This document shows, piece by piece, positions 30,238 to 47,693 of a stretch of DNA of 64,000 bases. The DNA lies in sequence record PZ445427.1; one strand, given 5' to 3'. The number at the start of each line of letters is the position of its first letter. Within the stretch, counting starts at the first letter, position 1. Origin of the DNA: a phage. A program made the position numbers and the translations under genes. The notes beneath the pieces are model-generated. The model was not told where the DNA came from. It made no database searches and worked only from the letters and a program-made list of their open reading frames with translations.

Positions 30238-31011
30238 TTAGTCGTCCAGATCGCTAGCAGCTTCAGCGTCGATGCCTTTCTGAGAACCAGCATCTCCACC
30301 AGACTTAGCGTCACCGCCGTCTTGCTTCTCACGACCTTCCATGAAGGCGAGAATAGCTTCTTTCTGCTCTTCATAGGACGGAACCGGGTAGGTTTCTTCC
30401 AGAGAAGGAACTTTTTCGAACTTGATGAACTCACCAGTATCATCACACATAGCTTCACCGAGGATATCAACATCAGCGGCGTGCAGTTTAGACTCAGCAC
30501 TGGTAGGATCTTTCAGTTTCATCTGGAACTGCATTGCTGCGATCTGCTGTACATCGTACTCAGTATCGAAGCCTTTACCTTTCTTCTCGATAGAAATATC
30601 GATATCGAATGGATCTGCCAGTTCAAGCTGCTTCATGATAGACTGGATGCCTTTCAGGATAGTAGCTTTAACTTCCATAACTTTCAGTTTGTTATCGGAA
30701 CGGTCGATAACGAAGGCGATGTAGTTTTTCTTCGGTTTCAGCGGAACACGATTACCCTCTTTGTCCAGCTCTTTTTCGAAGAAGCCCATTTCGTGAATCG
30801 GGTCAGCTTTACCGCGAATGAAGCTCTCTTTAGTACGGTTGAAACGCAGGCACTCAAACGGAGCTGCATTACCATCTTTGTTAGTCAGCCAGTAGACATA
30901 ACGTGGAAGAACACCAGAAACGATACGAACACGAGTTACACCGTTGTTGAATTTCAGGAAGTCGATTTTATCGTTAGAACCGCCAGTAGTTTCGCCCCAA
31001 GACTTAGCCAT
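30238..31011 (-). CDS. Putative ssDNA-binding / replication accessory protein with acidic C-terminal tail
   Basis: 257 aa; Gly/Asp-rich acidic C-terminus (...GGDAKSGGDAGSQKGIDAEAASDLDD) reminiscent of phage SSB tails; host-like codon usage; assignment tentative. Confidence 0.4.
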   Translation of the reverse strand: MAKSWGETTGGSNDKIDFLKFNNGVTRVRIVSGVLPRYVYWLTNKDGNAAPFECLRFNRTKESFIRGKADPIHEMGFFEKELDKEGNRVPLKPKKNYIAFVIDRSDNKLKVMEVKATILKGIQSIMKQLELADPFDIDISIEKKGKGFDTEYDVQQIAAMQFQMKLKDPTSAESKLHAADVDILGEAMCDDTGEFIKFEKVPSLEETYPVPSYEEQKEAILAFMEGREKQDGGDAKSGGDAGSQKGIDAEAASDLDD

Positions 31012-36526: not shown

Positions 36527-37417
36527 TTATACCAAATCTTTGAGCGATTCGGCAACTAAAATTTCAATACGTTGAGCCAACATATCGATCTCTTCTTTAT
36601 TTAAATCACCCGGGTCTTTACCTTCTGGAAGAAGGAAGTTACCAATTACAGGTGATAAACGTGTTTTTGTACGAATTAGCTTCGCCAATGCTTGCGCAGC
36701 TTTATTACCAGAAGCATCGTTATCTAGCAAGATAACTACTACTCTTACTCCAGCAATAATGTAAGGGCTGAATTTATCAGCAACGTTATCAGGTGTGAAC
36801 TGATGTGTACCAAAACAGCAAGAAGCATAATCCACACCGTTATCTTCTAGGTTTAACATATCAAAGATACCTTCAACTAGAACAAGAACTGGTGTATTAT
36901 ATCGTACGGGGAAAATCGGTGGTGAAACTTGTTTTGGTTTTACTAAGTATTTAGGAGGGGCAGAACTGTTTATAGAACGTCCCAGGAATAGGATATTGCG
37001 TCCAACAGCATCTGTTATTGGGAATACAATTCTGCCTTCCCAGTCTGCTTGATGTTGGAAAGCAAAATATTTCTTCAAGGTCTTAGAACTGATACCTCGG
37101 AAATCACCTTCGAAAAGGTAAGCAGATTCAGGAATTGCAAGATTCGTAGATCCATTCCTAATCTCTGAAATCTTTTTACGTACTTGTGACAATCTTGGTG
37201 ACTGTCTGTACTGAGTCTCATTAAAATAATGGTAAATGCTCGGTATTCCTCTACCGAAGCCACAACTCAAGCAATGCATAATTCCTGATTCAGGATCAAT
37301 ACGCAAACTTGGGTGTTTATCATCATGATCTGGATTGAGACAACAGATGAGGATATCCCCACCTGTGTCTTTGTATTCAATGCCTTTCAGATCAAGTAGT
37401 TCTGTTATTCTACTCAT
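36527..37417 (-). CDS. DnaG-like DNA primase
   Basis: 296 aa; CHC2 zinc-finger (CCLNPDHDDKHPSLRI...HCLSCGFG) and TOPRIM-like acidic motifs (VLVEGIFDMLNLEDNG, LDNDASG). Confidence 0.8.
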   Translation of the reverse strand: MSRITELLDLKGIEYKDTGGDILICCLNPDHDDKHPSLRIDPESGIMHCLSCGFGRGIPSIYHYFNETQYRQSPRLSQVRKKISEIRNGSTNLAIPESAYLFEGDFRGISSKTLKKYFAFQHQADWEGRIVFPITDAVGRNILFLGRSINSSAPPKYLVKPKQVSPPIFPVRYNTPVLVLVEGIFDMLNLEDNGVDYASCCFGTHQFTPDNVADKFSPYIIAGVRVVVILLDNDASGNKAAQALAKLIRTKTRLSPVIGNFLLPEGKDPGDLNKEEIDMLAQRIEILVAESLKDLV

Positions 37418-38886
37418 ATATCGCTGGCCTGTTCACCTGTTGAATTTTCAGCTTTGTCTTTCTTAGCACGTTTAGGTTGAGCTGGTTTATCCTTTTCAAT
37501 AGGAATAACGAACTCAGCTTCCATTTGCGCAATATCTTCCATTGCTAGGTTGGTAGTGTTATCCATTCGCAGAGTTTCCCAGTTCATCTTAGGCATAAAC
37601 TTCACACTATCAGAGGAACGAGTCTTAACGAAGTCAAACATAATAGCACCTTGACCGTTATCAGCTTTTGCAGCATTAAGATTAGCAGCCATATCTGCGG
37701 AATCAAGAATCCCTTTAGACATACGCGTTCTACCATCTTGGTCAATCTGGTAAGGGGCAACACCAGCCACGTTATGTTTCTGGCAGATAGATTTGAAAGA
37801 TGAACTAACAACCATCTGTTCTTTCCAGTCATACATATCAATGGTCTTTGAATCTGGAAGTCTTGTTTGGTTAATATAGTCTAGAAGAGCTACAGTAACC
37901 TTATCACCATACTTAGCAACTAGTTTATTTAATTCTACATCAACCGTCGTAATAGACAGTTCAGGATCGTAAACGATGATCATAGGAGTGTGAAGCTCAT
38001 AGCCTTCAAGGAGTTTACTTTCCATATCATAGAAGTCACTCATTTTAGCCATAGTGTATTGCTTAACGAAGTTATCGAAAAGCTCTTCACCACCATTAAA
38101 CATCCTAGCCCTAGTTCTGGCTAATCTCAACAGAGCAGCACCTTCAAGAGTGTTATTACGCATTGCTAATGCAGATACTCCAGCTAACATAGCCAGATTA
38201 CGTCTAAACACTTCGTGCTCTTTCATCTCAATTGAGAAATATGGAGCAATGTCTCCATTCAAATATTGCTGAACCTGTATGTTTGAACAGATAATGGATT
38301 TACCAGTACCACGCCAACCACCAAGCAGTAACGTTTCTGTGCGAGCTAAACCAATTTGAGCGTCGAACTCATTACAAATACCAAGAGCGATCAAGTTCAG
38401 TTTGGTATCTTCTTCTCTCTGGAAAATACGCATTGTGTCTGCGTTGAATACCTTTCCAGTATTCGTTACTTTCTCTTCTAATTTTAAGTGAAGGGAGGCA
38501 ACTCGGTTGAGAATTTCTCCCTGATCCAGCATTGTTAAATCTTGAAGCACGTCTGTTTCTAGAAGTTTCAGGAATAGATCCTGCGTATATTCAGCTTCTA
38601 GGACTTCAAGTGCCTGTTCCATGCTCACTTCTGGAATTTGAGTGTTAGCTAAGACGACAAGAGCTTGAGAAAGGCGGGCGTTCCTATTGGCCTCAAGCAT
38701 CAGTGCGTCAATGGACGGCATTGCGTTATATTTCTTATAATAATTCTGGACGGCTTGGTAAATTGAGGAGAAAGCGTCATTAAAATGATCTTTATGCAGT
38801 TTTGAGAATGTTTCCAATGCTACTTGCTTCTGTTCAGAAGCGAGAAGCATCTTCAACACTACAGCTTGCACGTTAAACAAGGTCAT
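37414..38886 (-). CDS. DnaB-like replicative helicase
   Basis: Walker A GGWRGTGKS, RecA-like C-terminal domain; start placed at MTLFNV (38886) with upstream AAGGAG, rather than the alternative-codon track start at 38937. Confidence 0.75.
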   Translation of the reverse strand: MTLFNVQAVVLKMLLASEQKQVALETFSKLHKDHFNDAFSSIYQAVQNYYKKYNAMPSIDALMLEANRNARLSQALVVLANTQIPEVSMEQALEVLEAEYTQDLFLKLLETDVLQDLTMLDQGEILNRVASLHLKLEEKVTNTGKVFNADTMRIFQREEDTKLNLIALGICNEFDAQIGLARTETLLLGGWRGTGKSIICSNIQVQQYLNGDIAPYFSIEMKEHEVFRRNLAMLAGVSALAMRNNTLEGAALLRLARTRARMFNGGEELFDNFVKQYTMAKMSDFYDMESKLLEGYELHTPMIIVYDPELSITTVDVELNKLVAKYGDKVTVALLDYINQTRLPDSKTIDMYDWKEQMVVSSSFKSICQKHNVAGVAPYQIDQDGRTRMSKGILDSADMAANLNAAKADNGQGAIMFDFVKTRSSDSVKFMPKMNWETLRMDNTTNLAMEDIAQMEAEFVIPIEKDKPAQPKRAKKDKAENSTGEQASDI

Positions 38887-38939
38887 TCTCCTTTGCACGC
38901 TTTCGTGCCTTCTAAATGCAAAAAGGGGAAGGAGCATAG

Positions 38940-38968
38940 CCCCCTCCCCTTAGGTTTAATTTACCAGA
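38940..38968 (-). terminator. Intrinsic terminator after gene 38969-39736
   Basis: On the - strand a GC-rich hairpin (GGGGAGG...CCTTCCCC) followed by TTTTT. Confidence 0.6.
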
Positions 38969-39736
38969 TTATTCAGCAGCCGCAGCTTTTGCATCCAGTT
39001 TAGCACGCTTAGCGGCACCATCATAGTCCTTAGCAACCAGACCACGACGAGACAGCATAGATTTAACACCGCGCTCAGACTTACCAGTTTTCTCAGCGAT
39101 CTCAGCAACAGTCATGTTAGCCAGATCCAGACCTTCTAACAGATCTTCACGAGTTTTAGCACTTGAAGTTTCCTGTACCGGCATAGCAGCGATACGACCT
39201 TCACGAAGCAGGCTCAGAGCTTTACCACGAATCTGCTTAATATTGCGACCGAAGTGAGCAGCGATAGCTTCAATAGTAGCACCAGCAACAACCTGATTAA
39301 CGAAATCAGTTTCTTCGTCAGGAGTGAAGGAACGAACAGCAGCAGCTTTTTCAGTTGGCTTAACAGAAGCGGTCATTTCCAGACTCAGGATCTTACCCTG
39401 TACCTGCTTAGCACCGAACTGACCACCAGCTACAGCAGCAGCGATTTCAGCGTAAGTATACTGACCAGCATGAGCGTTCAGGAAATCAACTAGTTCAGCT
39501 TCCTGCTCAGGAGTCCACGGGGATTTCTGTACTTCGTTAGCTTTCTGTACTTCGAAACCTTCTTTACGCAGCTTAGAGCCAACAGAGCGAGCGGTAACGT
39601 CTTTGCCAGTCTCGGTAGCCAGTTCAGCAGCGATAGCAGCTACTTGTTCTTGAGAGATTACAGCAACACCCAGAGCAGTGGCTTTTGCTTTCAGAGACTC
39701 GGTTACACCTTCTACGTTCCAGTTCAGTTTAGACAT
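38969..39736 (-). CDS. Protein composed of four tandem HTH-like repeats (putative DNA- or RNA-polymerase-binding regulator)
   Basis: 255 aa; four repeats of the pattern (T/S)xxEIAxxxGxxxxxVxxKxLSxxGL (for example MTVAEIAEKTGKSERGVKSMLSRRGL) resembling LuxR / sigma70 region 4 HTH; host-like codon usage. Confidence 0.5.
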   Translation of the reverse strand: MSKLNWNVEGVTESLKAKATALGVAVISQEQVAAIAAELATETGKDVTARSVGSKLRKEGFEVQKANEVQKSPWTPEQEAELVDFLNAHAGQYTYAEIAAAVAGGQFGAKQVQGKILSLEMTASVKPTEKAAAVRSFTPDEETDFVNQVVAGATIEAIAAHFGRNIKQIRGKALSLLREGRIAAMPVQETSSAKTREDLLEGLDLANMTVAEIAEKTGKSERGVKSMLSRRGLVAKDYDGAAKRAKLDAKAAAAE

Positions 39737-40508
39737 TATTATTTTTCTCCAATAGTTCTTTAATCGACAGGATTTCTATCCCATTCGTTTCGGCTTTCTT
39801 ATAAGATGAGGAAGAACGTTTTGATTCATCCTCACAGATTAGGTATTTGACGTCTTTGGTAACGGACTTCTTGACCGTATATCCTAGACTTTCTAAATAG
39901 TTTGTTGCATCCGTTCGATTTGCAAAGTCTTGCAAAGATCCGGTAATACAGACCGTGATTCCATTTGGCTGGGCAACTAAATCATCTGTAATGATGATAT
40001 CAGCTTTAGCACCTCGAATACCAGTTGAGAATTTCCACGGTAGTTCAATAACATCCTTGCCTTGTGGGGAATTTAGCCAGGTTTTGTAATTTTCTCCAGC
40101 CTTGCCGTCAGCCTTCACATCGTGGAAGCTAGTGCAATTTTGGGACAGTTTCTTTGCTGCAACCTCTCCAATAAGAGGAATTCCTAAAGAACCGAGAACT
40201 GAACCAAAGTCAATGTCTCCGCGAACCTTAGTATTTAACTCGCTAATCAACTTAGCGGCAACCTTGCTACCCACAGCTCCTACCAAATCTTCTTCGGTCA
40301 GGTAAAACAGTTCTGAGATCTTAGTCAGCTCCAGCTTCTCAATAGTTTTCGGGCCAAAGCCCTTTAACTTCATTTTTGTGCAGAAGTTCTCGATTAACTT
40401 ACTTGATTGCGCTGGACAGTTGGACTTATTCCTACAGAATAATTGCCCGTTGACAAGATCTAGCTTAGAACCACAAGAGGGACATTGTGTTGGAATTTCG
40501 ATTTTCAT
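39729..40508 (-). CDS. NAD-dependent DNA ligase, C-terminal fragment (Zn-finger, HhH, BRCT); ligB-like
   Basis: N-terminal CPSCGSKL...CRNKSNC zinc ribbon, HhH region, C-terminal BRCT-like domain (VCITGSL...); own promoter upstream; ATG at 40508. Confidence 0.75.
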   Translation of the reverse strand: MKIEIPTQCPSCGSKLDLVNGQLFCRNKSNCPAQSSKLIENFCTKMKLKGFGPKTIEKLELTKISELFYLTEEDLVGAVGSKVAAKLISELNTKVRGDIDFGSVLGSLGIPLIGEVAAKKLSQNCTSFHDVKADGKAGENYKTWLNSPQGKDVIELPWKFSTGIRGAKADIIITDDLVAQPNGITVCITGSLQDFANRTDATNYLESLGYTVKKSVTKDVKYLICEDESKRSSSSYKKAETNGIEILSIKELLEKNNNV

Positions 40509-40538
40509 CAAATTTCTTCCTTATCAATTTATATAAAT

Positions 40539-40567
40539 ATTATAGCAAGTATTTAAGCATTTAGCAA
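40539..40567 (-). promoter_or_regulatory. Early sigma70 promoter inside the ligase spacer, driving the C-terminal ligase fragment
   Basis: On the - strand TTGCTA, 17-nt spacer, TATAAT, then ...AAATTGATAAGGAAG... RBS. Confidence 0.6.
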
Positions 40568-40710
40568 CTACAATTTTAACTAACTTTGCTTACCCTCGCC
40601 ATAACTTTCTATCCCTCAACTGAATGATAATAGTATATACCTAAGCGGCGAAAATGTCAATAACCACTTTATAATTCCGACATGGTAAACGGGTAGCAAA
40701 GGGTTACGAA

Positions 40711-41682
40711 TTAGTCGTATACTCGCTCTACTATACAAGGGATTACACCACCAGCACGAATCACTCGAATCTGGCAACCGATCTCTAAATCGAGAGCGTT
40801 AATATAATCAACGTTATTAAGAGTTGCTTTAACGATTGTGGCATCATCAATAATCACCGGTTCGAAATAACCAACTGGAGTTACTTTACCAGAAGCCCCT
40901 ACTTGCCATTCAACTTTAACAAGTGTGGTAATTTCGCCTTCTTCATCCTCTTTAATAGCAAATGCACCACGAGGAAATTTATTAGTCCAACCTTCACGGA
41001 AGAATTTGTTGTTATCATTAATACGAACAACTTTACCATCCGTCGGAATCCACTTAAAGAAGGAACGAACATTAACAACTGTCAAGAAGTTCTCATTCTC
41101 TAGCCAAAGCATATCTTTTAAATAGGCTTCTGTAATACCGACTGTTTCCGCTGAACACTGGATACCATATGCAACGAAGATTAAACCACCTTCACCAATA
41201 CGTTGCATGAAATCATCGCTGTCTTTCAGGTTAATAGCACCCGAAGCGTAGTTACGTTTGTTCTCTACTTCTTTAGTAATGAGAACTTCACCAGTGATTT
41301 GAGTTGGTACTTTTTGGGAAATAGTTTTGGGGATGTTTAGCATTTTAACATTATGCGTTACATCATTCCCTAGAATACCGTTACCACGAGTTAACGCTTG
41401 AACAAATTCACCATTAATATATAACAGAGAAATTGCACAGCCATCTAACTTATCAGTTTCAACCTGACCTAATGGATTGAATGGAGCTTTATCACCACGA
41501 CCGTAATAGACTTTCTGCAAAGAATACATACGATACAAGTGAGGAATATCACCTTTCGGTCCGATTTCTTCCTCTAGTGGGAATCTTTTAATCAGACGAT
41601 CATATTCTTCATCGGAAATAAGACTCATTCCCTGGTAGTACGCTTCTTGACAACGTTTGATAAAGTCTTTTACATTATTCAT
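40711..41682 (-). CDS. NAD-dependent DNA ligase, N-terminal fragment (adenylation and OB-fold domains); ligA-like
   Basis: 323 aa; adenylation motif KLDGCAIS (catalytic lysine), OB-fold region; ends before the zinc finger that opens the next ORF. Confidence 0.8.
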   Translation of the reverse strand: MNNVKDFIKRCQEAYYQGMSLISDEEYDRLIKRFPLEEEIGPKGDIPHLYRMYSLQKVYYGRGDKAPFNPLGQVETDKLDGCAISLLYINGEFVQALTRGNGILGNDVTHNVKMLNIPKTISQKVPTQITGEVLITKEVENKRNYASGAINLKDSDDFMQRIGEGGLIFVAYGIQCSAETVGITEAYLKDMLWLENENFLTVVNVRSFFKWIPTDGKVVRINDNNKFFREGWTNKFPRGAFAIKEDEEGEITTLVKVEWQVGASGKVTPVGYFEPVIIDDATIVKATLNNVDYINALDLEIGCQIRVIRAGGVIPCIVERVYD

Positions 41683-41875
41683 CGTCTGCGATTTCCATTT
41701 TGAGTTCTTTATTATACTGAGCAGCCATACCAGCTAAATCAGCAGCTTCTTTTAACCACGCATCTTTGTACGCTTTCTGGTTTGGAGTGCCAATATTGTC
41801 CTGATAATTGATCTTTGCTATGGAAAGCAAATTAAGTTTTGCTTGAATCTTTGGAAGTGTTATTGTCATTGCCAT
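41675..41875 (-). CDS. Hypothetical small protein
   Basis: ATG (MAMTITLPK...) preceded by GAGAGGA RBS and a TATAAT promoter; overlaps the ligase fragment start. Confidence 0.4.
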   Translation of the reverse strand: MAMTITLPKIQAKLNLLSIAKINYQDNIGTPNQKAYKDAWLKEAADLAGMAAQYNKELKMEIADDE

Positions 41876-41960
41876 AATTGATCCTCTCATCAATTTATAT
41901 AAATATTATATATGAAAACTGAGTCGAAAGCAAGTACATTTATAAAGAAAAAGCCAAGAA

Positions 41961-42269
41961 CTAGGCATTCTTGGCTTTGAGTTCTTCAGCTCGTTTCTGT
42001 ACTTCATGCAAGACCTCGGATTCACTGAGGATTTGCGTAAAAGCGTAGAATAGCTGTGACGTAGTTTCTAGGGTATAAGGAAAAGAGAAGCCGGATTTCG
42101 TTGGAAACCACTCTCCAGTAATATCTTGGAGCCAGTAACGAATTCCCATGTATAGATTCCCACGAAATTCAGATACGGTTAGTCTTACTTGTTCTCCCTC
42201 CTTCTCCCAAAGCATGATGGACTGGTCGTCAACGTGTCCTTCATAGTTTTGATTTACCTGATCGCTCAT
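41961..42269 (-). CDS. PC4-like ssDNA-binding protein (putative)
   Basis: 102 aa; segment VRLTVSEFRGNLYMGIRYWLQDITGEWFPTKSGFSF matches the PC4/Sub1 core pattern (v.vs.F.G...idIReYw...g...PgkKGisl); terminator hairpin embedded in the 3' end. Confidence 0.55.
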   Translation of the reverse strand: MSDQVNQNYEGHVDDQSIMLWEKEGEQVRLTVSEFRGNLYMGIRYWLQDITGEWFPTKSGFSFPYTLETTSQLFYAFTQILSESEVLHEVQKRAEELKAKNA

Positions 42270-42284
42270 TTACATATCCCAAAT

Positions 42285-42310
42285 ACACAAAAAGCCCCAT
42301 ATAGGGGCTA
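42285..42310 (-). terminator. Intrinsic terminator after gene 42320-42616
   Basis: Hairpin agcccc-atat-aggggct with T-tract on the - strand. Confidence 0.6.
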
Positions 42311-42319
42311 ATTGGTTTC

Positions 42320-42616
42320 TTATCGGCCTACTGGAGAAGCACGATCTAACTCTGACTGGAGGCTCGTCACACGGCGAACTTTCGCAACAGGAATGAAACG
42401 GAAGCTATCGTTAGTACGAGAGAAAACGAGGATTTCATCTTCTTTCGGCTTACGGATGCGCTCACGTTTAATACGCTCAGCCAGGTATTTATCCTGAGCT
42501 GGATCAAATTCCATCGTACCCTGAAGGTACGTGGTTCCTTTCTGACGAAGTTTTTCGTAATGAAGATAAAACTCACCAAATTTTTCGCATTGAGCAATAA
42601 TTTCAGCTTTATTCAT
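42320..42616 (-). CDS. Hypothetical protein
   Basis: 98 aa ORF followed by an intrinsic terminator. Confidence 0.4.
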   Translation of the reverse strand: MNKAEIIAQCEKFGEFYLHYEKLRQKGTTYLQGTMEFDPAQDKYLAERIKRERIRKPKEDEILVFSRTNDSFRFIPVAKVRRVTSLQSELDRASPVGR

Positions 42617-42652
42617 AACTGTATTCCTTGTGTTGGTGGATTTATCTAAGAA

Positions 42653-43063
42653 TTACTTAGTGATAGCTCGGATAGCTTCTGCCAGATGAGCAGCTGCTTT
42701 ACCGGTCAGCTTGTCGATGATTGCGTCGTCCAGGAAGTCCGGTGCTAAGCCAGCATCAGAGAATGCAGAGCGAAGATCGGAGTGAGCCTGAGCTTTGGAA
42801 GTACGAGAACCACCAGAAGCTTTTTCTCCAGTAGATGCGTTTGATTTAGAAGTAGAGCCAGCAGCTTTCTTGATATACAGACCTGCTTTGGTCAGCTTCA
42901 TACGGAAACCGTTCGGAGTTACACCATTTTCCTGAGCAATTTCGCTAACAATTTCCATGCTAACGCCCGGACGCTCATCTTCTGGGAATTGCTCCATACG
43001 AGCAACGTAGTCGGAAGACATTTTTTCGAACAGTTCATCAGTCCACTGAGTTGGAGTAGTCAT
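42653..43063 (-). CDS. Hypothetical protein with one HTH-like repeat related to those of 38969-39736
   Basis: 136 aa; segment SMEIVSEIAQENGVTPNGFRMKLTKAGL resembles the repeat unit of the 255-aa protein; host-like codon usage. Confidence 0.45.
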   Translation of the reverse strand: MTTPTQWTDELFEKMSSDYVARMEQFPEDERPGVSMEIVSEIAQENGVTPNGFRMKLTKAGLYIKKAAGSTSKSNASTGEKASGGSRTSKAQAHSDLRSAFSDAGLAPDFLDDAIIDKLTGKAAAHLAEAIRAITK

Positions 43064-43170
43064 ATTTTTCGATTTCCTTAATTAAGAATTAAACAGAATA
43101 GTTCTTTCAAACTATGAGAATATTATATCAAGAATTACAGGATTAAGCAACTGAAATTTTTCAGTAACTG

Positions 43171-43425
43171 CTACACATCTAGTTCAACGATCTCCCAATC
43201 GTCGGCCAGAGCTTCGTCTAGAGTTAGCTCAGTGGTTTTCCACGATGCATCGTCTAGCGTGAGTTTAGTACGCCCATCTTTAGACCACCACCAAGTAAAT
43301 TCTATAATGTCGTTATTATCAACATCTACTTTGATGATAGTGGTAGAATAAGTATTATTTTCCCAGCTATCTCGCTGGAGATATTTTACGTCTCCAGCTT
43401 TTAACAGATCAGTTAGTTTACTCAC
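43171..43425 (-). CDS. Hypothetical small acidic protein
   Basis: 84 aa, acidic C-terminal half (DEALADDWEIVELDV); overlaps the upstream gene by 8 nt. Confidence 0.4.
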   Translation of the reverse strand: MSKLTDLLKAGDVKYLQRDSWENNTYSTTIIKVDVDNNDIIEFTWWWSKDGRTKLTLDDASWKTTELTLDEALADDWEIVELDV

Positions 43426-44122
43426 GGCGTTTTCCTTTCTCTTTATCGAGTTTCAGTGCAGCTTTAACAGCTTCATTAACCAACGTGATAACTTCTTCAC
43501 GGCTCCATTTAAAGCCAAGAGCCTTAACATCAACTCCCAGCTTTTCCAGATGTTTAACAGAAGCTAATTCGTAGTGCATATAGTGAACGTTCTGTTGTTT
43601 ACCTTCTGATAACAACCAAACACGGTAGCAGCCAACTGGGTTAGTCATTGCTTTCTTGATTTCACCAATACACTGATAGCCAGGAACCCAAACAAGTTCA
43701 CCAACTTCAAATTCTTCTGCCATTGCATCATCAGGAATCAACGGAGGATTCAATGGATCAACAATATCGTTTAAACGAAGTAGAGCACCATAACGTTCCA
43801 GAACAGATTTAATCATCGCTACAGAACGATAGTTACGATCAGCAATTTCTTCAAAAGAATCACCAGAAAGATACTGTTCAATTACGTTTGCAAGCTCAAC
43901 CCCCTCAATCAGTGTTCCGCGCTTCTTCTTTTTCATTTCCGCAACTTGAACCTGACGATCTCTCCATTCCTCGATCATTCGTTCCATAGTTGGGTTAGAA
44001 GAAACGCCGAGCATTTCACATGCTGCTTTCTTAGTACCACCATTCTCCAGATGTTCAATAACCTTTTTAAAGGTTTCATCAGGGATTTCATGGATAAGTT
44101 TCTTTCTACGAGAACCAGCCAT
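43418..44122 (-). CDS. Putative DNA-binding protein with N-terminal HTH, first gene behind the PN25-type promoter
   Basis: 234 aa; HTH-like segment GTKKAACEMLGVSSNPTMERMIEEW; GAGAGAGGAG RBS. Confidence 0.5.
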   Translation of the reverse strand: MAGSRRKKLIHEIPDETFKKVIEHLENGGTKKAACEMLGVSSNPTMERMIEEWRDRQVQVAEMKKKKRGTLIEGVELANVIEQYLSGDSFEEIADRNYRSVAMIKSVLERYGALLRLNDIVDPLNPPLIPDDAMAEEFEVGELVWVPGYQCIGEIKKAMTNPVGCYRVWLLSEGKQQNVHYMHYELASVKHLEKLGVDVKALGFKWSREEVITLVNEAVKAALKLDKEKGKRRE

Positions 44123-44153: not shown

Positions 44154-44182
44154 ATTATACAGAAAAATTTTCCTAAAAGCAA
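44154..44182 (-). promoter_or_regulatory. T5 PN25-type strong early promoter
   Basis: The - strand reads TTGCTTTTAGGAAAATTTTTCTGTATAATAGATTCATAAATTTGAGAGAGGAGTTTAAATATG, nearly identical to the PN25 sequence as I recall it. Confidence 0.8.
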
Positions 44183-44190
44183 ATAAATTT

Positions 44191-44424
44191 TTACGATTCT
44201 TTGAGCAAAGAAGCAAGTTCAGCATAGACTTTATCTAACTCAAAGCCAATGCGAAGAGACACACGAGTCTTCCGTTGTTTAAGTAACCATATGGAGACGT
44301 TAGGGATGCCAGCGAGACGAGGTGGTACAACCCTACATAGTTTCTCCGCAGTATCGTAAACAGAAGTTTTACGTTCTTTTACGGGAAACTTCCTTGTTTC
44401 CCACTTTTTATTCTTCGCTGTCAT
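44191..44424 (-). CDS. Hypothetical small basic protein
   Basis: ORF starting MTAKNKKWETRK..., overlapping the stop of the upstream large gene by about 17 nt. Confidence 0.35.
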   Translation of the reverse strand: MTAKNKKWETRKFPVKERKTSVYDTAEKLCRVVPPRLAGIPNVSIWLLKQRKTRVSLRIGFELDKVYAELASLLKES

Positions 44425-47197
44425 TTCTAGCCCCCAATTCAGCAAGAGCTTCCTCATGCATCTGACGTTCTTCATCTGTCATAAACTTAACTGGAATCGG
44501 CATACATTCGATCTTACAGTAAGTTCTGTACCAGTCCACAATCTTTTCCGTATCCAGATCTTTACCGATACCCATCATGCCAAGATACATACGAGCATAT
44601 TTTGGGTTAGCGCTCTGACCTGTCTTAAGGAAGAAATCCTTCTTCTTATTCTTAAGAGCTTCGATAAACGGTTTGATTGTTACGTTTGAACACTTTTTAA
44701 TATCTTCCCAGAACATGTCGTGCATCTTATGGAAGAATGCAGCTCTATCGTTTGGTTTATCCTTGATATACTGTTCAACGTGTTCCACTGTTACATCTTT
44801 AATAGAATCCAGATGATAATAGCGAACCAGAAGTAACTTGGCTTCATAGGCATCTGCATGACGTGGTGCACAATATTCAGGAGTTGAGTGCAAAATAGCT
44901 TTGATTCGCTCTTCTGTATACTCTTTTCCTGCACCTTCGATAGTTCCCCAGCTTTCGCTGAAAATATCGATAGTTGCACCCTGATCAAGCAGATAATAAC
45001 GCAAAGTACTAGTATAGTTTCTAGATTCCAGCTCACGACGACGTGCGTACAGTTGTTGGGCTAACTCAATCCAACCTTCGTCAATATTATATTGCTCGGA
45101 ACCCGCAGAAAATCCACTCGTAGATTTATCAATAAAATAATAAATGTTCTGAGCACCACGGTCGCGCCTGATTGCTTGAAAACGCATGTTTGGCGCTTGG
45201 TTTGAGGTTCGAGTGATAACAAATACGTTATCAAAATAGTTAAAGTCAACACCACTTGTTACAGATGGACTACATAATAAACAATCAATCTGTTGATCAA
45301 TTAGCTCATTAGTTGTATAATCCAGAATACGACGGATATCTACATCAGACGTAGAGTTTGAGTGAATTTCTTTAACTAACGCACCTGTATTACGACGTAA
45401 TGCCATTCCCTTTTCATTCAGTTCATCCGGTCCACAGTCAGATACTAGGATTGATTTCTCACCCATCTCTAGAGATGTTTGAAGTGCAACCCAAATACTG
45501 GATTCGTCAGGGAATTCATAAGCGTGAGCTTTCGCCAGCATTTTACGGTGGTGATTATAAAATGCGACTGGTTTATCAAAATCAATCAAAGAACCATAGG
45601 CTTCAATCGTTTCTGCACTGATATCACCATCAGATAAGATCACCGTTTTAGCAGTAATAAGAATATCGCGAAGAACCTGTATACATTCACGACGGTTTTT
45701 AACAACCGGAGCGAATAACAGATCATTCATTACTGCGTCACATTCATCAATAAAGATCGTATCAATCTGACCCACAAAGCTCTTGAACTTATGGATAGAG
45801 TGAATAGTTGAAGACATACGATCAATGGCACCACGTTTGAAGTTCAGCATATCAACTGACTTATCATACTGACCAGCACTGAATTTCTTCGCGTTTGAAG
45901 ATACAAGTGCCCTAGTATTCGTGATTGCAATAAAGTTTCCTGGAAGAACACCTGCATCTAGCCACTTAGTTACTGCTGTGGTTTTACCTGTACCAAGACT
46001 TGCCTTAACAAATGTTAAATGTCCTTTTGGTGGTACAATGTTAATTTTCAGGTATGGAACTTCTGGTGGAGAATCTGTATCCAGACGTTTTAATGGTACG
46101 CCTTTTAAGTTGGGCGGAATCTCACGTTTGGAGTTATTTACAAAGGCTTTGAGAGCCTGCTTACGACCGTTATTAAAGTAATCTTGAATATTACGACTAT
46201 TATCTTTAGTTGCAATATATTCAGATAAAGCTGGTTTAATCTCACGTTCTAACCACGTAAAGTCAACACCATCTTCTAACGCTCTGTGATAAAGTTTTGG
46301 GATAATACGCAGGTACACCCCATCCTCAGCTTCTTCTAGTTCGCTGATGGTTTCTTCCACTTTATCAGATGCAGCCTTCTTGCCTTTAATTTGGTCAAGT
46401 AAGGAGTAGAATTCTTCTTTAAACTCACCTCTAGTTGTTTCAAAGTCAACTAGGTTATTGGGTAGATTCACTTTCGAACCCTTAACATACACAAGACGTG
46501 GTTTATTCTCCGCTTTAAACGGATCGACTATACCATCATCAAATAAGGGATCTGCGAAATAGTGAAGCTGAACAGAAGAATAATAAGCTAAGTCAGCAAT
46601 ATCAAAGCCATACTTTTGCTTACTACTGTCATTGATGGATGTAAATAAGAATTTTAATTGCCCCTGCGTTACCTTGACATTAGATTCTAGCATTAAGTGC
46701 ATTCGGATACCTGGTTTTAATCCAGCCGAAGACGATGCATGAGCAATAAACCCTGCATCAAGAGGAAACATATCCTCACTAATACTATTCAACATCTTAA
46801 TAATATGACGTGCCATGCCAACAAGATTAAACTTGTCATAGCCACCAGTATCTACAATACCATCCACGTCCATAGCGATAATATGACTAGGATTGGATAC
46901 GTTAAAGTTTCCTCTGGTACGACGCACATTATCTTTTGGGGCTAGACATTTACCACGAATAGCTACAATATGCGGGTCTTTGGTAAGACGACGCATGATA
47001 GGTAACATTTCAGCAAGGTTTTGCGGGTCAAGTTCTTCAAGTACATCAAATTTGAAGGGCATGGAAGCTGGTTTACCTTCTGGATGCTCTTTAGAGAATC
47101 GCTTTGCAAAGGTGTAATCTTCCACTTTGATCTCTTTCCAGATGCCAGTGGCTTTATCTCTGGAAAATCCTGCGTGACCTTGTAGGATTGAGAACAC
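44408..47197 (-). CDS. Large replication-associated P-loop ATPase / SF2 helicase-like protein (putative origin-binding or replication initiation helicase)
   Basis: Walker A KASLGTGKTT and DExD-like Walker B IFIDECD in the middle of a 930-970 aa protein; track start is 47320, but the first 41 codons are Cys/Asn-rich low complexity; an in-frame GTG at 47197 has an AGGAG RBS at 7-nt spacing. Confidence 0.55.
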   Translation of the reverse strand: MFSILQGHAGFSRDKATGIWKEIKVEDYTFAKRFSKEHPEGKPASMPFKFDVLEELDPQNLAEMLPIMRRLTKDPHIVAIRGKCLAPKDNVRRTRGNFNVSNPSHIIAMDVDGIVDTGGYDKFNLVGMARHIIKMLNSISEDMFPLDAGFIAHASSSAGLKPGIRMHLMLESNVKVTQGQLKFLFTSINDSSKQKYGFDIADLAYYSSVQLHYFADPLFDDGIVDPFKAENKPRLVYVKGSKVNLPNNLVDFETTRGEFKEEFYSLLDQIKGKKAASDKVEETISELEEAEDGVYLRIIPKLYHRALEDGVDFTWLEREIKPALSEYIATKDNSRNIQDYFNNGRKQALKAFVNNSKREIPPNLKGVPLKRLDTDSPPEVPYLKINIVPPKGHLTFVKASLGTGKTTAVTKWLDAGVLPGNFIAITNTRALVSSNAKKFSAGQYDKSVDMLNFKRGAIDRMSSTIHSIHKFKSFVGQIDTIFIDECDAVMNDLLFAPVVKNRRECIQVLRDILITAKTVILSDGDISAETIEAYGSLIDFDKPVAFYNHHRKMLAKAHAYEFPDESSIWVALQTSLEMGEKSILVSDCGPDELNEKGMALRRNTGALVKEIHSNSTSDVDIRRILDYTTNELIDQQIDCLLCSPSVTSGVDFNYFDNVFVITRTSNQAPNMRFQAIRRDRGAQNIYYFIDKSTSGFSAGSEQYNIDEGWIELAQQLYARRRELESRNYTSTLRYYLLDQGATIDIFSESWGTIEGAGKEYTEERIKAILHSTPEYCAPRHADAYEAKLLLVRYYHLDSIKDVTVEHVEQYIKDKPNDRAAFFHKMHDMFWEDIKKCSNVTIKPFIEALKNKKKDFFLKTGQSANPKYARMYLGMMGIGKDLDTEKIVDWYRTYCKIECMPIPVKFMTDEERQMHEEALAELGARNDSEE

Positions 47198-47693
47198 AAC
47201 AATACTCCTATGTTGGTTATTCGGATATCTTTCTTTAGGACTATTCAAAAGAATAGAACAACTATTACTACCATTTACACAAACATTAATCATCATCAAG
47301 CAGTATGAATAAGTTATCATACCTCAGTGCTGCGCTCTCTTAACTCTTATCCAGATCAGAACCTAGGTCATTGGCCGCTAAGCCGATTCTGATTGCCCTC
47401 ACTATCCTATTGGTAGGTGGCTACTGGACGTGTCACCATTCGCTGCTCTTTTCGTTCGCACCCCCATATAAAGCTCTGCCTATATAACGAGCTAAATATG
47501 CACGGTTTGGATTTACCTTTCCGAATTCAGGGTACGCAGATCACTTAATTGATAATTAACTAATGCAGTATAAACACTAGTAATAGTTAAAACAACCCTT
47601 AATGGGGCAGCCTAACTGTTCCGTATTGCGGATTGTAAACAAGAAAAATTAGCAAAATCAATTTTTACTAATGTCTCTCAATTCAATATAAAT

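What the first reader, a model, noticed from the sequence alone, without database searches (positions are those of the whole stretch)
38969..39736. Protein made of four tandem HTH-like repeats, with a single-repeat relative nearby
The 255-aa protein consists of four copies of a module of about 30 residues with the pattern (T/S)xxEIAxxxGxxxxxVxxKxLSxxGL, reminiscent of LuxR or sigma70 region 4 helix-turn-helix units. The 136-aa protein at 42653-43063 contains one similar unit. Both genes use host-optimal codons, suggesting abundant expression. Tandem arrays of sigma-region-4-like HTH units are unusual and could indicate a DNA-binding regulator or a protein that engages host RNA polymerase. T5-like phages are known to redirect host RNA polymerase for late transcription, but I cannot link this ORF to any named factor.
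Basis: inference. Interest (0 to 1): 0.45.

Follow-up and report, generated by a model that had tools for sequence, protein, structure and literature searches.

The report
Phage T5 D5 DNA-binding protein
This gene is the long-known, very abundant D5 DNA-binding protein of T5-like phages; its four-fold helix-turn-helix repeat is real, and each unit looks most like the DNA-binding domain of the bacterial regulator GcrA (a Myb-type fold), not a sigma-factor piece.

Summary
ORF 38969-39736(-) encodes a 255-aa protein made of four tandem helix-turn-helix (HTH) modules. The real unit is about 55-60 aa (three helices), not 30. The 136-aa protein at 42653-43063 carries one related module. Both genes have the strongest host-optimal codon bias of 61 ORFs in the window.

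The protein is not unknown. It is 252/255 identical to T5p116 of phage T5, which most records call "D5 protein / putative transcription factor D5" (T5.118). The 136-aa protein is "D3".

D5 is reported in the literature as a DNA-binding protein affecting replication and late gene expression, as very abundant in lysates, and (2026 preprint) as the HTH trigger of retron-Kva2.

New detail found here:
- The closest solved fold for both D5 and D3 is the GcrA DNA-binding domain.
- A third neighbour, the 234-aa ORF at 43418-44122, carries two D5-like modules.
- All three genes sit behind orthologues of T5 promoters PN25, PN26 and PK28.

Kinship with sigma region 4 and RNA polymerase engagement are not supported.

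Best reading: an abundant, multivalent coating protein for double-stranded phage DNA. Already known; modest interest.

The parts
38969..39736 (-). D5 gene (255 aa; T5.118 / T5p116 orthologue)
   Evidence: 100% nucleotide identity to annotated 'D5 protein' genes, with matches in 437 phage records. PHROG 323 'transcriptional regulator, D5-like', E=1.5e-71. 252/255 identical to T5 AAU05255.
39533..39736 (-). Module R1 (residues 1-68): tri-helical HTH, the module closest to the D3 N-terminus
   Evidence: Helices 11-22, 29-43 and 49-58. Invariant residues W6, R50, K55, L56, R57. Aligns with the GcrA DNA-binding domain at P=7e-5.
39347..39532 (-). Module R2 (residues 69-130): GcrA/Myb-type HTH
   Evidence: Helices 76-88, 95-101 and 109-118. 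R2-R3 hhalign P=5e-9. Invariant residues E97, Q113, G114, K115, L117.
39167..39346 (-). Module R3 (residues 131-190): GcrA/Myb-type HTH, followed by the conserved MPxQ linker
   Evidence: Helices 139-150, 155-162 and 166-178. Aligns with the GcrA DNA-binding domain at P=1.9e-5. Invariant residues E156, G171, K172, P186.
38972..39166 (-). Module R4 (residues 191-255): HTH plus a conserved C-terminal helix
   Evidence: Helices 210-217, 221-231 and 240-254. Pfam Sigma70_r4_2 matches residues 204-230 at 29.1 bits. Invariant residues G223, L228, G240.
38923..38951 (-). Intrinsic-terminator-like hairpin just after the D5 stop codon
   Evidence: 13-bp stem (8 G-C pairs) followed by a T run.
40539..40567 (-). 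Orthologue of T5 promoter P-K28a (TTGCTA-17-TGcTATAAT), upstream of ligB-D5
   Evidence: Found by the promoter scan. The ligB upstream stretch that holds it is 97% identical overall to the stretch of AY692264 that carries the annotated P-K28b and P-K28a promoters. The D5 ATG overlaps the ligB stop codon.
40632..40660 (-). Orthologue of T5 promoter P-K28b (TTGACA-17-TATACT)
42653..43063 (-). D3 gene (136 aa): one D5-R1-like HTH (residues 1-68, nt 42860-43063), a disordered linker (68-86), and a three-helix C-terminal domain
43122..43150 (-). Orthologue of T5 promoter P-N26 (TTGCTT-17-TGaTATAAT), upstream of D3
   Evidence: Sequence read directly. 96% identical to the annotated P-N26 region of T5.
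43418..44122 (-). 234-aa gene (called 'D2 protein' in most records and 'D3' in AY692264). Residues 6-116 resemble D5 R3-linker-R4.
   Evidence: hhalign of family A4 against A1: P=1.5e-5, 80% probability, 103 columns. The single sequence gives P=3.5e-5. Shared motif RGTLIEGVELAN / REDLLEGLDLAN.
44154..44182 (-). Orthologue of T5 promoter P-N25, upstream of the 234-aa gene
   Evidence: 96% identical to the annotated P-N25 region of T5.

Best explanation
The ORF encodes the T5-family D5 protein. D5 is an early, very abundant, monomeric protein of about 27 kDa that binds double-stranded DNA.

It is built from four tandem tri-helical HTH modules of the GcrA-DNA-binding-domain / Myb (homeodomain-like) type, joined by short conserved linkers.

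Proposed mechanism (inferred):
1. Each module places its third helix in a major groove. That helix carries the family-invariant basic and Gly/Lys residues.
2. One monomer therefore makes four linked, individually weak contacts over several helical turns.
3. At the copy numbers implied by its promoters and codon usage, the protein coats the phage DNA. Host DNA has been destroyed by that stage.
4. Coating changes the template globally. It damps the strong early sigma-70 promoters and provides the DNA state needed for replication and late expression.
5. D5 does not act as a site-specific activator or as a partner of RNA polymerase.

D3 (one module) and the 234-aa protein (two modules) are paralogous accessory proteins from the same early replication cluster.

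Shown here: identity, module architecture, fold class, paralogy, expression signals. Taken from the literature: DNA binding, abundance, monomer state, the link to replication and late genes. Inferred: the coating model and how it causes the early-to-late switch.
For: Identity:
- (99% identical to T5p116).
- The position between ligB and dnaB is kept even in a relative that is only 48% identical.

Architecture:
-.

Fold class:
- D3 independently gives the same top match.
- An HMM built from R2/R3 matches residues 2-45 of the GcrA DNA-binding domain at P about 3e-6.
- All four modules align with the GcrA domain end to end in one register.

DNA-contact surface:
- The GcrA residues that contact DNA (W3, R33, N34, I37, G38, K39, H41, R42; PMC5887438) map onto D5 family-invariant or nearly invariant positions. 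These are W6/W74, R50/K110, G53/Q113/R170, G114/G171, K55/K115/K172 and R57.

Abundance:
- Optimal-codon fraction ranks 1 and 2, in the class of the major head protein and the single-strand DNA-binding protein.
- The genes lie behind orthologues of the PK28a/b, PN26 and PN25 promoters.
- D5 is 'very abundant in lysates' of T5 and BF23 but absent from virions (PMC10644984).
- D5 is a major species in phiR2-01 preparations (PMC8624392).

Function:
- D5 measures 26 kDa (its expected monomer size) by mass photometry, is toxic when expressed alone, and is predicted by AlphaFold3 to bind the retron msDNA (bioRxiv 10.64898/2026.07.11.737809).

No operator-like motif:
- Only promoter words are enriched in the 28 intergenic regions of the window.
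Against: - Nothing here measures DNA binding, stoichiometry or sequence specificity.
- The 1979 biochemistry (double-strand preference, cooperativity) is recalled from memory and could not be read.
- The strong conservation of recognition-helix residues would also fit sequence-specific binding.
- The protein is near neutral overall (pI 6.8, net charge 0), which is unusual for a histone-like coating protein.
- pTM of 0.57 and a TM-score of 0.74 to an independent model of a Vibrio-phage D5 hint at a defined inter-module arrangement rather than beads on a string.
- The retron preprint models binding to a DNA stem-loop, not to plain duplex DNA.
- The preprint reports an escaper phage with W74* in D5, which is hard to square with an essential coating protein.
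Confidence: 0.55

Rival explanations
1. D5 is a sequence-specific late-gene transcription factor. Its four HTH modules read a composite site at late promoters, and it recruits or re-targets sigma-70 RNA polymerase, working like GcrA.
For: - It is annotated 'putative / late gene transcription factor' in many records.
- The module fold is closest to GcrA, a monomeric activator.
- The recognition-helix residues are invariant across the family.
- The title of the 1979 paper links D5 to late gene expression.
- The mechanism of the T5 early-to-late switch is still unknown (PMC7472727).
Against: - There is no GcrA-type sigma-interacting domain; D5 has no cysteine at all.
- D5 was not among the proteins found with RNA polymerase from infected cells.
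- Codon bias and abundance at the level of structural proteins are far above what a site-specific factor needs.
- No repeated operator-like word is enriched in the intergenic DNA of the window.
- D5 mutants also fail in DNA replication (title).
Confidence: 0.15
2. D5 is a structure-specific DNA-binding protein for hairpins, nicks, gaps or forks. It works in the T5 replication/recombination machinery, and its effects on transcription are secondary.
For: - The gene sits inside the replication module: ori-binding helicase, ligase A/B, DnaB, primase, polymerase.
- The retron-Kva2 preprint models D5 on an msDNA stem-loop and shows that D5 remodels the retron complex.
- The Timeless DNA-binding domain, a tandem Myb-like pair in the eukaryotic replisome that binds G-quadruplex DNA, is among the structural neighbours.
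- T5 DNA carries site-specific nicks (PMC10644984 abstract).
Against: - The stem-loop contact is an AlphaFold3 model, not a measurement.
- The GcrA/Myb fold normally reads the major groove of duplex DNA.
- Very high abundance argues for a stoichiometric ligand, not a few structures per genome.
- The phage already has an abundant single-strand DNA-binding protein (30238-31011) and a PC4-like single-strand DNA-binding protein (41961-42269).
Confidence: 0.2
3. D5 is a sigma-70 region 4 mimic or decoy. It either competes for -35 elements or binds the beta-flap of RNA polymerase.
For: - Pfam Sigma70_r4_2 matches residues 204-230 at 29.1 bits, above the 25.7-bit cut-off.
- 58 of 65 family members match that model at E<=0.01.
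Against: - The match covers only 27 of the 54 profile positions (the bare HTH) and is one of many cross-hits to HTH families.
- No sigma region 2 or 3 is present.
- D5 was not found with RNA polymerase.
Confidence: 0.03

Closest known systems
Bacteriophage T5 gene D5 product (T5.118 / T5p116, AAU05255)
   Same: - 252 of 255 residues are identical and the length is the same.
- The position between ligB and dnaB, the upstream promoters and the terminator are the same.
- The residues named in the 2026 preprint (G53, W74, V149, G232) are all present.
   Different: Nothing of substance; this is the orthologue in an Epseptimavirus-type genome.
GcrA DNA-binding domain of Caulobacter crescentus (PDB 5yiu / 5z7i)
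   Same: - It has the same three-helix HTH with a leading aromatic residue (W-T-x-E) and a G-K motif in helix 3.
- Sequence-level similarity: P about 3e-6 to the R2/R3 profile.
   Different: - GcrA has one DNA-binding domain, a roughly 64-residue linker and a CCCH zinc domain that binds sigma-70.
- D5 has four DNA-binding-domain-like modules, no cysteine and no such domain.
- The Pfam GcrA model is not matched by the window protein and is matched below threshold by only 5 of 65 relatives.
- GcrA reads methylated GANTC sites. Nothing suggests that for D5.
Myb/SANT tandem-repeat DNA-binding domains (c-Myb R1R2R3, Timeless DNA-binding domain, SNAPc4)
   Same: - Tandem tri-helical repeats of about 50 aa joined by short linkers.
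- The T5 record already notes PF00249.
- 15 of 65 relatives match the Myb Pfam model.
   Different: - The three regularly spaced tryptophans of Myb repeats are absent; D5 has only W6 and W74.
- The Pfam Myb score of the window protein is below threshold (17.8 against 24.4 bits).
- The host is a phage, and expression is at the level of structural proteins.
Abundant phage or bacterial DNA-coating (nucleoid-associated) proteins, for example phi29 p6 (functional analogy only; recalled from general knowledge)
   Same: The proposed role is alike: an early, very abundant, low-specificity binder of double-stranded DNA that affects both replication and the early-to-late transcription switch.
   Different: The folds are unrelated, and no homology was tested or is claimed. 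The coating behaviour of D5 is inferred here, not shown.

Membership tests
T5 D5 protein family (PHROG 323) | Full-length sequence homology to D5 of T5 | tested here: met
   PHROG 323 at E=1.5e-71 over residues 1-253. 99% identical to T5p116. 726 homologues found.
T5 D5 protein family (PHROG 323) | Conserved position in the early replication cluster, between ligB and the DnaB-type helicase | tested here: met
   Seen in the window, phage Ace, T5 and a metagenomic relative that is 48% identical.
T5 D5 protein family (PHROG 323) | Very high early expression | tested here: met
   The evidence is indirect. Optimal-codon fraction 0.83, rank 1 of 61. PK28a/b promoter orthologues upstream. Abundance reported in PMC10644984 and PMC8624392.
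T5 D5 protein family (PHROG 323) | Binds double-stranded DNA; needed for replication and late gene expression | not testable with these tools
   Only the title of McCorquodale et al. 1979 could be seen. The paper itself is not held.
Sigma-70 region 4 / LuxR-type HTH | Match to a region 4 profile over the whole domain | tested here: inconclusive
   Sigma70_r4_2 scores 29.1 bits, above the 25.7 cut-off. The match covers only profile positions 23-49 of 54 and only module R4. Sigma70_r4 scores 18.3 bits, below its 24.1 cut-off.
Sigma-70 region 4 / LuxR-type HTH | Belongs to a sigma factor (region 2 present), or sigma / LuxR proteins are the nearest folds | tested here: not met
   [not shown]
GcrA family | N-terminal DNA-binding-domain fold | tested here: met
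   [not shown]
GcrA family | C-terminal sigma-70-interacting domain with a CCCH zinc finger | tested here: not met
   D5 and D3 contain no cysteine. The domain is described in PMC5887438.
GcrA family | Pfam PF07750 match above threshold | tested here: not met
   No hit for the window protein. 5 of 65 relatives match at E<=0.01, with a best E-value of 4e-5.
Myb/SANT repeat proteins | Tandem tri-helical repeats of about 50 aa | tested here: met
   [not shown]
Myb/SANT repeat proteins | Three regularly spaced tryptophans per repeat; Pfam PF00249 above threshold | tested here: not met
   Only W6 and W74 are present. PF00249 scores 17.8 bits against a 24.4 cut-off, although 15 of 65 relatives match at E<=0.01.

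The most novel reading that the evidence does not exclude
D5 (four modules), the 234-aa protein (two modules) and D3 (one module) are a paralogous set of GcrA/Myb-type HTH proteins. They are made at structural-protein levels from the strongest T5 early promoters.

Together they would form a phage-encoded 'chromatin' on T5 DNA. That chromatin would be the missing global switch that turns early promoters off and late transcription and replication on.

The same module would be what retron-Kva2 senses. The three escaper loci named in the preprint (D2 E76Q; D3 E30Q/G85D; D5) would then be exactly these three paralogues.
Probability: 0.3. Interest if true: 0.55.

Novelty: already known. Interest (0 to 1): 0.3.

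Why it matters
How T5 switches from early to late transcription with an unchanged sigma-70 polymerase is still unexplained (PMC7472727). D5 is one of the few genes linked to that switch.

Three results give concrete, mutable surfaces and a testable coating model:
- D5 is four GcrA/Myb-type modules with conserved helix-3 residues.
- Two neighbouring early genes carry the same module.
- All three genes are driven by PN25, PN26 and PK28-type promoters.

The results may also help to explain why a retron that senses an HTH fold selects escape mutations in these genes. For genome annotation, 'transcription factor' and 'helicase' are probably poor labels for the 255-aa and 234-aa proteins respectively. 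The D2/D3/D5 names are also used inconsistently between records.

Tried and rejected
- Single-module Pfam scans gave a scatter of sub-threshold HTH families and no single assignment.
- A search for an operator-like DNA word in the 28 intergenic regions found only TATAATATT-type early-promoter words.
- Foldseek against viral models found only D5 orthologues with a similar overall shape. Other multi-HTH phage proteins scored TM<=0.25.
- The D3 C-terminal domain shows no similarity to any D5 module or to GcrA.
- The 1979 D5 papers could not be read, and their reference strings appear in only one held paper. Details of cooperative duplex binding are therefore marked as recollection.
- The idea that the repeats are an Ala-rich low-complexity artefact was rejected. 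The reasons are the pLDDT of 94.7, the family-wide invariant residues, and the consistent alignment register.

Full report
**1. What is there**

ORF 38969-39736 on the minus strand encodes 255 aa. It has an ATG start, a GGAGA Shine-Dalgarno sequence upstream, and a start codon that overlaps the stop codon of the gene upstream.

The neighbourhood is the early replication module of a T5-like phage, all on the minus strand:
- DnaB-type helicase, 37414-38937
- this ORF, 38969-39736
- NAD-ligase subunit B, 39729-40511
- NAD-ligase subunit A, 40711-41682
- a PC4-like protein, 41961-42269
- a 98-aa ORF, 42320-42616
- the 136-aa ORF, 42653-43063
- an 84-aa ORF
- a 234-aa ORF, 43418-44122
- the large origin-binding helicase, 44408-47320

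**2. Identity**

The gene is 100% identical in nucleotide sequence to the 'D5 protein' gene of phage vB_EcoS_Ace (Epseptimavirus, Demerecviridae). It matches 437 phage records, mostly at 95-99% identity. Those records label it 'D5 protein', 'putative transcription factor D5' or 'late gene transcription factor'.

It matches PHROG 323 'transcriptional regulator, D5-like' at E=1.5e-71.

Against T5 itself (AY692264) it is 252/255 identical to T5p116. That record annotates T5p116 as 'putative transcription factor; contains eucaryal Myb-like DNA-binding domain (PF00249)'.

The 136-aa protein is 132/136 identical to T5p111. Most records call it 'D3 protein' or 'DNA binding protein' (PHROG 1725).

One caveat concerns names. 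Most other records call the 234-aa ORF D2, the 136-aa ORF D3 and the 255-aa ORF D5. The 2026 retron preprint uses the second scheme. Its D5 has 255 residues and 26 kDa, and its named residues D5 G53, W74, V149, G232 and D3 E30, G85 are all present here.

**3. The repeats are real**

Evidence from the single sequence:
- R2 (69-130) against R3 (131-190) gives z=7.3 against 1000 shuffles.
- R4 and R1 each match the D3 N-terminus (z=7.8 and 5.4).
- The other pairs are weak.

Evidence from a 65-sequence family alignment (A1, down to about 50% identity), cut into four segments and compared profile against profile:
- R2-R3: P=5e-9.
- R1-R2, R1-R3, R1-R4 and R3-R4: P=1e-4 to 4e-4, all in the same register.
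- R2-R4: not significant.

AlphaFold2 on A1 gives a confident model (mean pLDDT 94.7, pTM 0.57) with four helical modules.
- R2 and R3 are clean three-helix units.
- R1 has longer first and second helices with an insertion.
- R4 is an HTH whose first helix is poorly formed, and it is followed by a conserved C-terminal helix (240-254).

The unit is therefore about 55-60 residues.

The family-invariant residues cluster in the third helix of each module:
- R1: R50, K55, L56, R57
- R2: Q113, G114, K115, L117
- R3: G171, K172
- R4: G223, L228

**4. Which kind of HTH**

Pfam gives many weak HTH cross-hits. Only Sigma70_r4_2 passes its cut-off (29.1 against 25.7 bits), and it covers just 27 residues of R4. 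Across the family, the numbers of members matching at E<=0.01 are: Sigma70_r4_2 58 of 65, HTH_23 35, HTH_32 19, Myb 15 and GcrA 5.

At the sequence level:
- The GcrA domain aligns end to end with every module: R3 P=1.9e-5, R1 7e-5, R2 4e-4, R4 1.5e-3.
- An HMM of R2/R3 matches GcrA residues 2-45 at P about 3e-6.
- The GcrA sequence used was checked against PDB 7ye1/5yiu.

The residues through which GcrA contacts DNA are listed in PMC5887438. They map onto the invariant D5 positions.

The modules are therefore GcrA-DNA-binding-domain / Myb-type homeodomain-like HTH units, not sigma region 4. D5 is not a GcrA family member. It has no cysteine and so lacks the CCCH sigma-binding domain. No paper in the searchable library links GcrA to T5-like phages. 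T5's own annotation had already noted the Myb likeness.

**5. Paralogues**

- The D3 family N-terminus (1-68) aligns with D5 R1 at P=6e-6.
- A D3 orthologue from a distant contig (36% identity to the D3 family, same genomic position) does the same at P=2e-4.
- D3 continues with a disordered Ser/Gly/Lys linker and a three-helix C-terminal domain carrying an invariant DKLTGKA motif. That domain resembles nothing tested.
- Not part of the original finding: residues 6-116 of the 234-aa protein align with D5 130-236, that is R3, linker and R4. Family against family gives P=1.5e-5, 80% probability, 103 columns. The shared stretch RGTLIEGVELAN / REDLLEGLDLAN stands out.
- PHROGs labels the 234-aa family 'helicase', yet no helicase domain is found in it.

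**6. Expression**

D5 and D3 have the highest fractions of E. coli-optimal codons of 61 ORFs (0.83 and 0.81; median 0.50). The next ORFs are the major head protein, the single-strand DNA-binding protein and a tail fibre protein.

The promoters annotated in T5 have 96-97% identical orthologues in the window:
- P-N25, in front of the 234-aa gene
- P-N26, in front of D3
- P-K28b and P-K28a, in front of ligB-D5

They carry the TATAATATT signature that PMC7472727 describes for early promoters. From general knowledge, these are among the strongest known E. coli promoters.

A 13-bp hairpin followed by a T run lies just after the D5 stop codon.

Independent reports agree on abundance:
- D5 is 'very abundant in lysates' of T5 and BF23 but absent from virions (PMC10644984).
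- D5 is a major species in phiR2-01 preparations (PMC8624392).

**7. Function in the literature**

[quoted passage not shown] I could not read it. My recollection that the roughly 29-kDa protein binds duplex DNA cooperatively is unverified.
- RNA polymerase purified from infected cells carried gpA1, pb8 and gpT5.026. D5 was not reported (PMC7472727).
- A July 2026 preprint identifies D5 as the trigger of the type IX retron-Kva2. It reports an HTH predicted by AlphaFold3 to bind the msDNA stem-loop, a mass of 26 kDa (the expected monomer size) by mass photometry, and toxicity when expressed alone.
- Its escaper phages carried changes in D5 (G53D, W74*, V149I, G232D) with D2 E76Q, or in D3 (E30Q, G85D).
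- G53, W74 and G232 are nearly invariant in my alignment. E30 is nearly invariant in the D3 family and E76 in the 234-aa family.
- Residue 76 of the large helicase is not Glu in this window. The preprint's 'D2' is therefore probably the 234-aa protein. In that case all three escaper loci would be the three HTH-module paralogues. This is an inference.

**8. Mechanism**

The best-supported reading is a multivalent, low-specificity DNA-coating protein. Four linked major-groove readers per monomer, made in very large amounts, would cover phage DNA and change the template for transcription and replication.

The rivals, in order of plausibility:
- A structure-specific replication or recombination factor.
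- A site-specific late activator.
- A sigma-4 mimic (poorly supported).

Points that do not fit neatly:
- The protein is near neutral (pI 6.8).
- The linkers VKPTEK and MPxQ are conserved and modelled confidently although they are non-helical.
- The overall predicted shape resembles an independent model of a Vibrio-phage D5 (TM 0.74), so the modules may pack in a fixed way.

**9. Family range**

The family is large. There are 726 hits in the 90%-clustered collection, and 552 cluster representatives at E<=1e-3, of which 77 reach 1e-30. The named and long-contig hits seen are T5-like (Demerecviridae-like) phages and contigs of about 100-120 kb, and synteny was checked on one of these contigs.

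Some relatives have five modules (P0173, 309 aa; P0245, 289 aa). Unrelated proteins carry longer arrays of similar HTH units. Tandem arrays as such are therefore common.

**10. Verdict**

The protein is already known as T5 D5.

The added value is the module-level description, the GcrA-type fold, and the two paralogues behind PN25 and PN26.

Noticed in passing
window 43418-44122 (-): The 234-aa early protein ('D2 protein' in most records, 'D3' in AY692264, 'helicase' in PHROG 3611) has no helicase domain. Its residues 6-116 look like D5 modules R3-linker-R4 (P=1.5e-5). Its nearly invariant E76 matches the 'D2 E76Q' retron-escape change in the 2026 preprint.
   Followed up: partly
L004 (AY692264 54000-61000) versus window 37414-44122: The gene names D2, D3 and D5 are attached to different ORFs in different T5-family records. 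AY692264 puts 'D5 protein' on dnaB and 'D3' on the 234-aa ORF. Literature that uses these names needs care.
   Followed up: partly
window 42653-42859 (-), D3 residues 69-136: After its HTH, D3 has a disordered Ser/Gly/Lys-rich linker (pLDDT below 50 for residues 68-86). A small three-helix C-terminal domain follows, with an invariant DKLTGKA motif. It matched no D5 module and no clear solved fold.
   Followed up: partly
window 39166-39195 and 39347-39364 (-), D5 linkers: The inter-module linkers VKPTEK (125-130) and MPxQ (185-188; P186 invariant) are highly conserved. They are modelled with high confidence although they are non-helical. Their role (minor-groove contact, fixed packing or a partner site) is unexplained.
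   Followed up: no
window 41961-42269 (-): A PC4-like (transcriptional coactivator p15) single-strand DNA-binding protein lies in the same cluster (Pfam PC4, E=1.5e-8). It is annotated in T5 as T5p113.
   Followed up: no
window 30238-31011 (-): A 257-aa protein matching the single-strand DNA-binding family PHROG 1607 has the fourth highest codon bias in the window (0.76). It groups with D5, D3 and the major head protein.
   Followed up: partly
proteins P0046, P0047, P0050, P0063, P0074 (D5 homologues) and P0165, P0167, P0171 (D3 homologues): The precomputed Pfam hit PF26822.1 appears on both D5 and D3 homologues. That family is absent from the local Pfam copy, so its name and definition could not be checked. 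It may already unite the two proteins.
   Followed up: no
proteins P0020, P0038, P0151: Partial proteins 97-99% identical to this phage's D5 and D3 are filed in NCBI under Enterococcus faecalis. This probably reflects contaminating phage reads in those assemblies.
   Followed up: no
proteins P0173 (309 aa) and P0245 (289 aa): Some D5-family members carry five modules, with an extra R2/R3-type copy. Module number has therefore changed by internal duplication.
   Followed up: partly
proteins P0289 and P0312: These two proteins of about 500-570 aa have a LuxR/GerE-type HTH near residue 150-200, followed by four to five weaker matches to the D5 R2/R3 profile. Their source and function are unknown.
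   Followed up: no
window intergenic regions, e.g. 40536, 43119, 47691, 56870, 60569: The word TATAATATT (the -10 hexamer plus the ATATT discriminator described for T5 early promoters) is the only 9-mer clearly enriched in intergenic DNA (7 of its 11 occurrences).
   Followed up: partly
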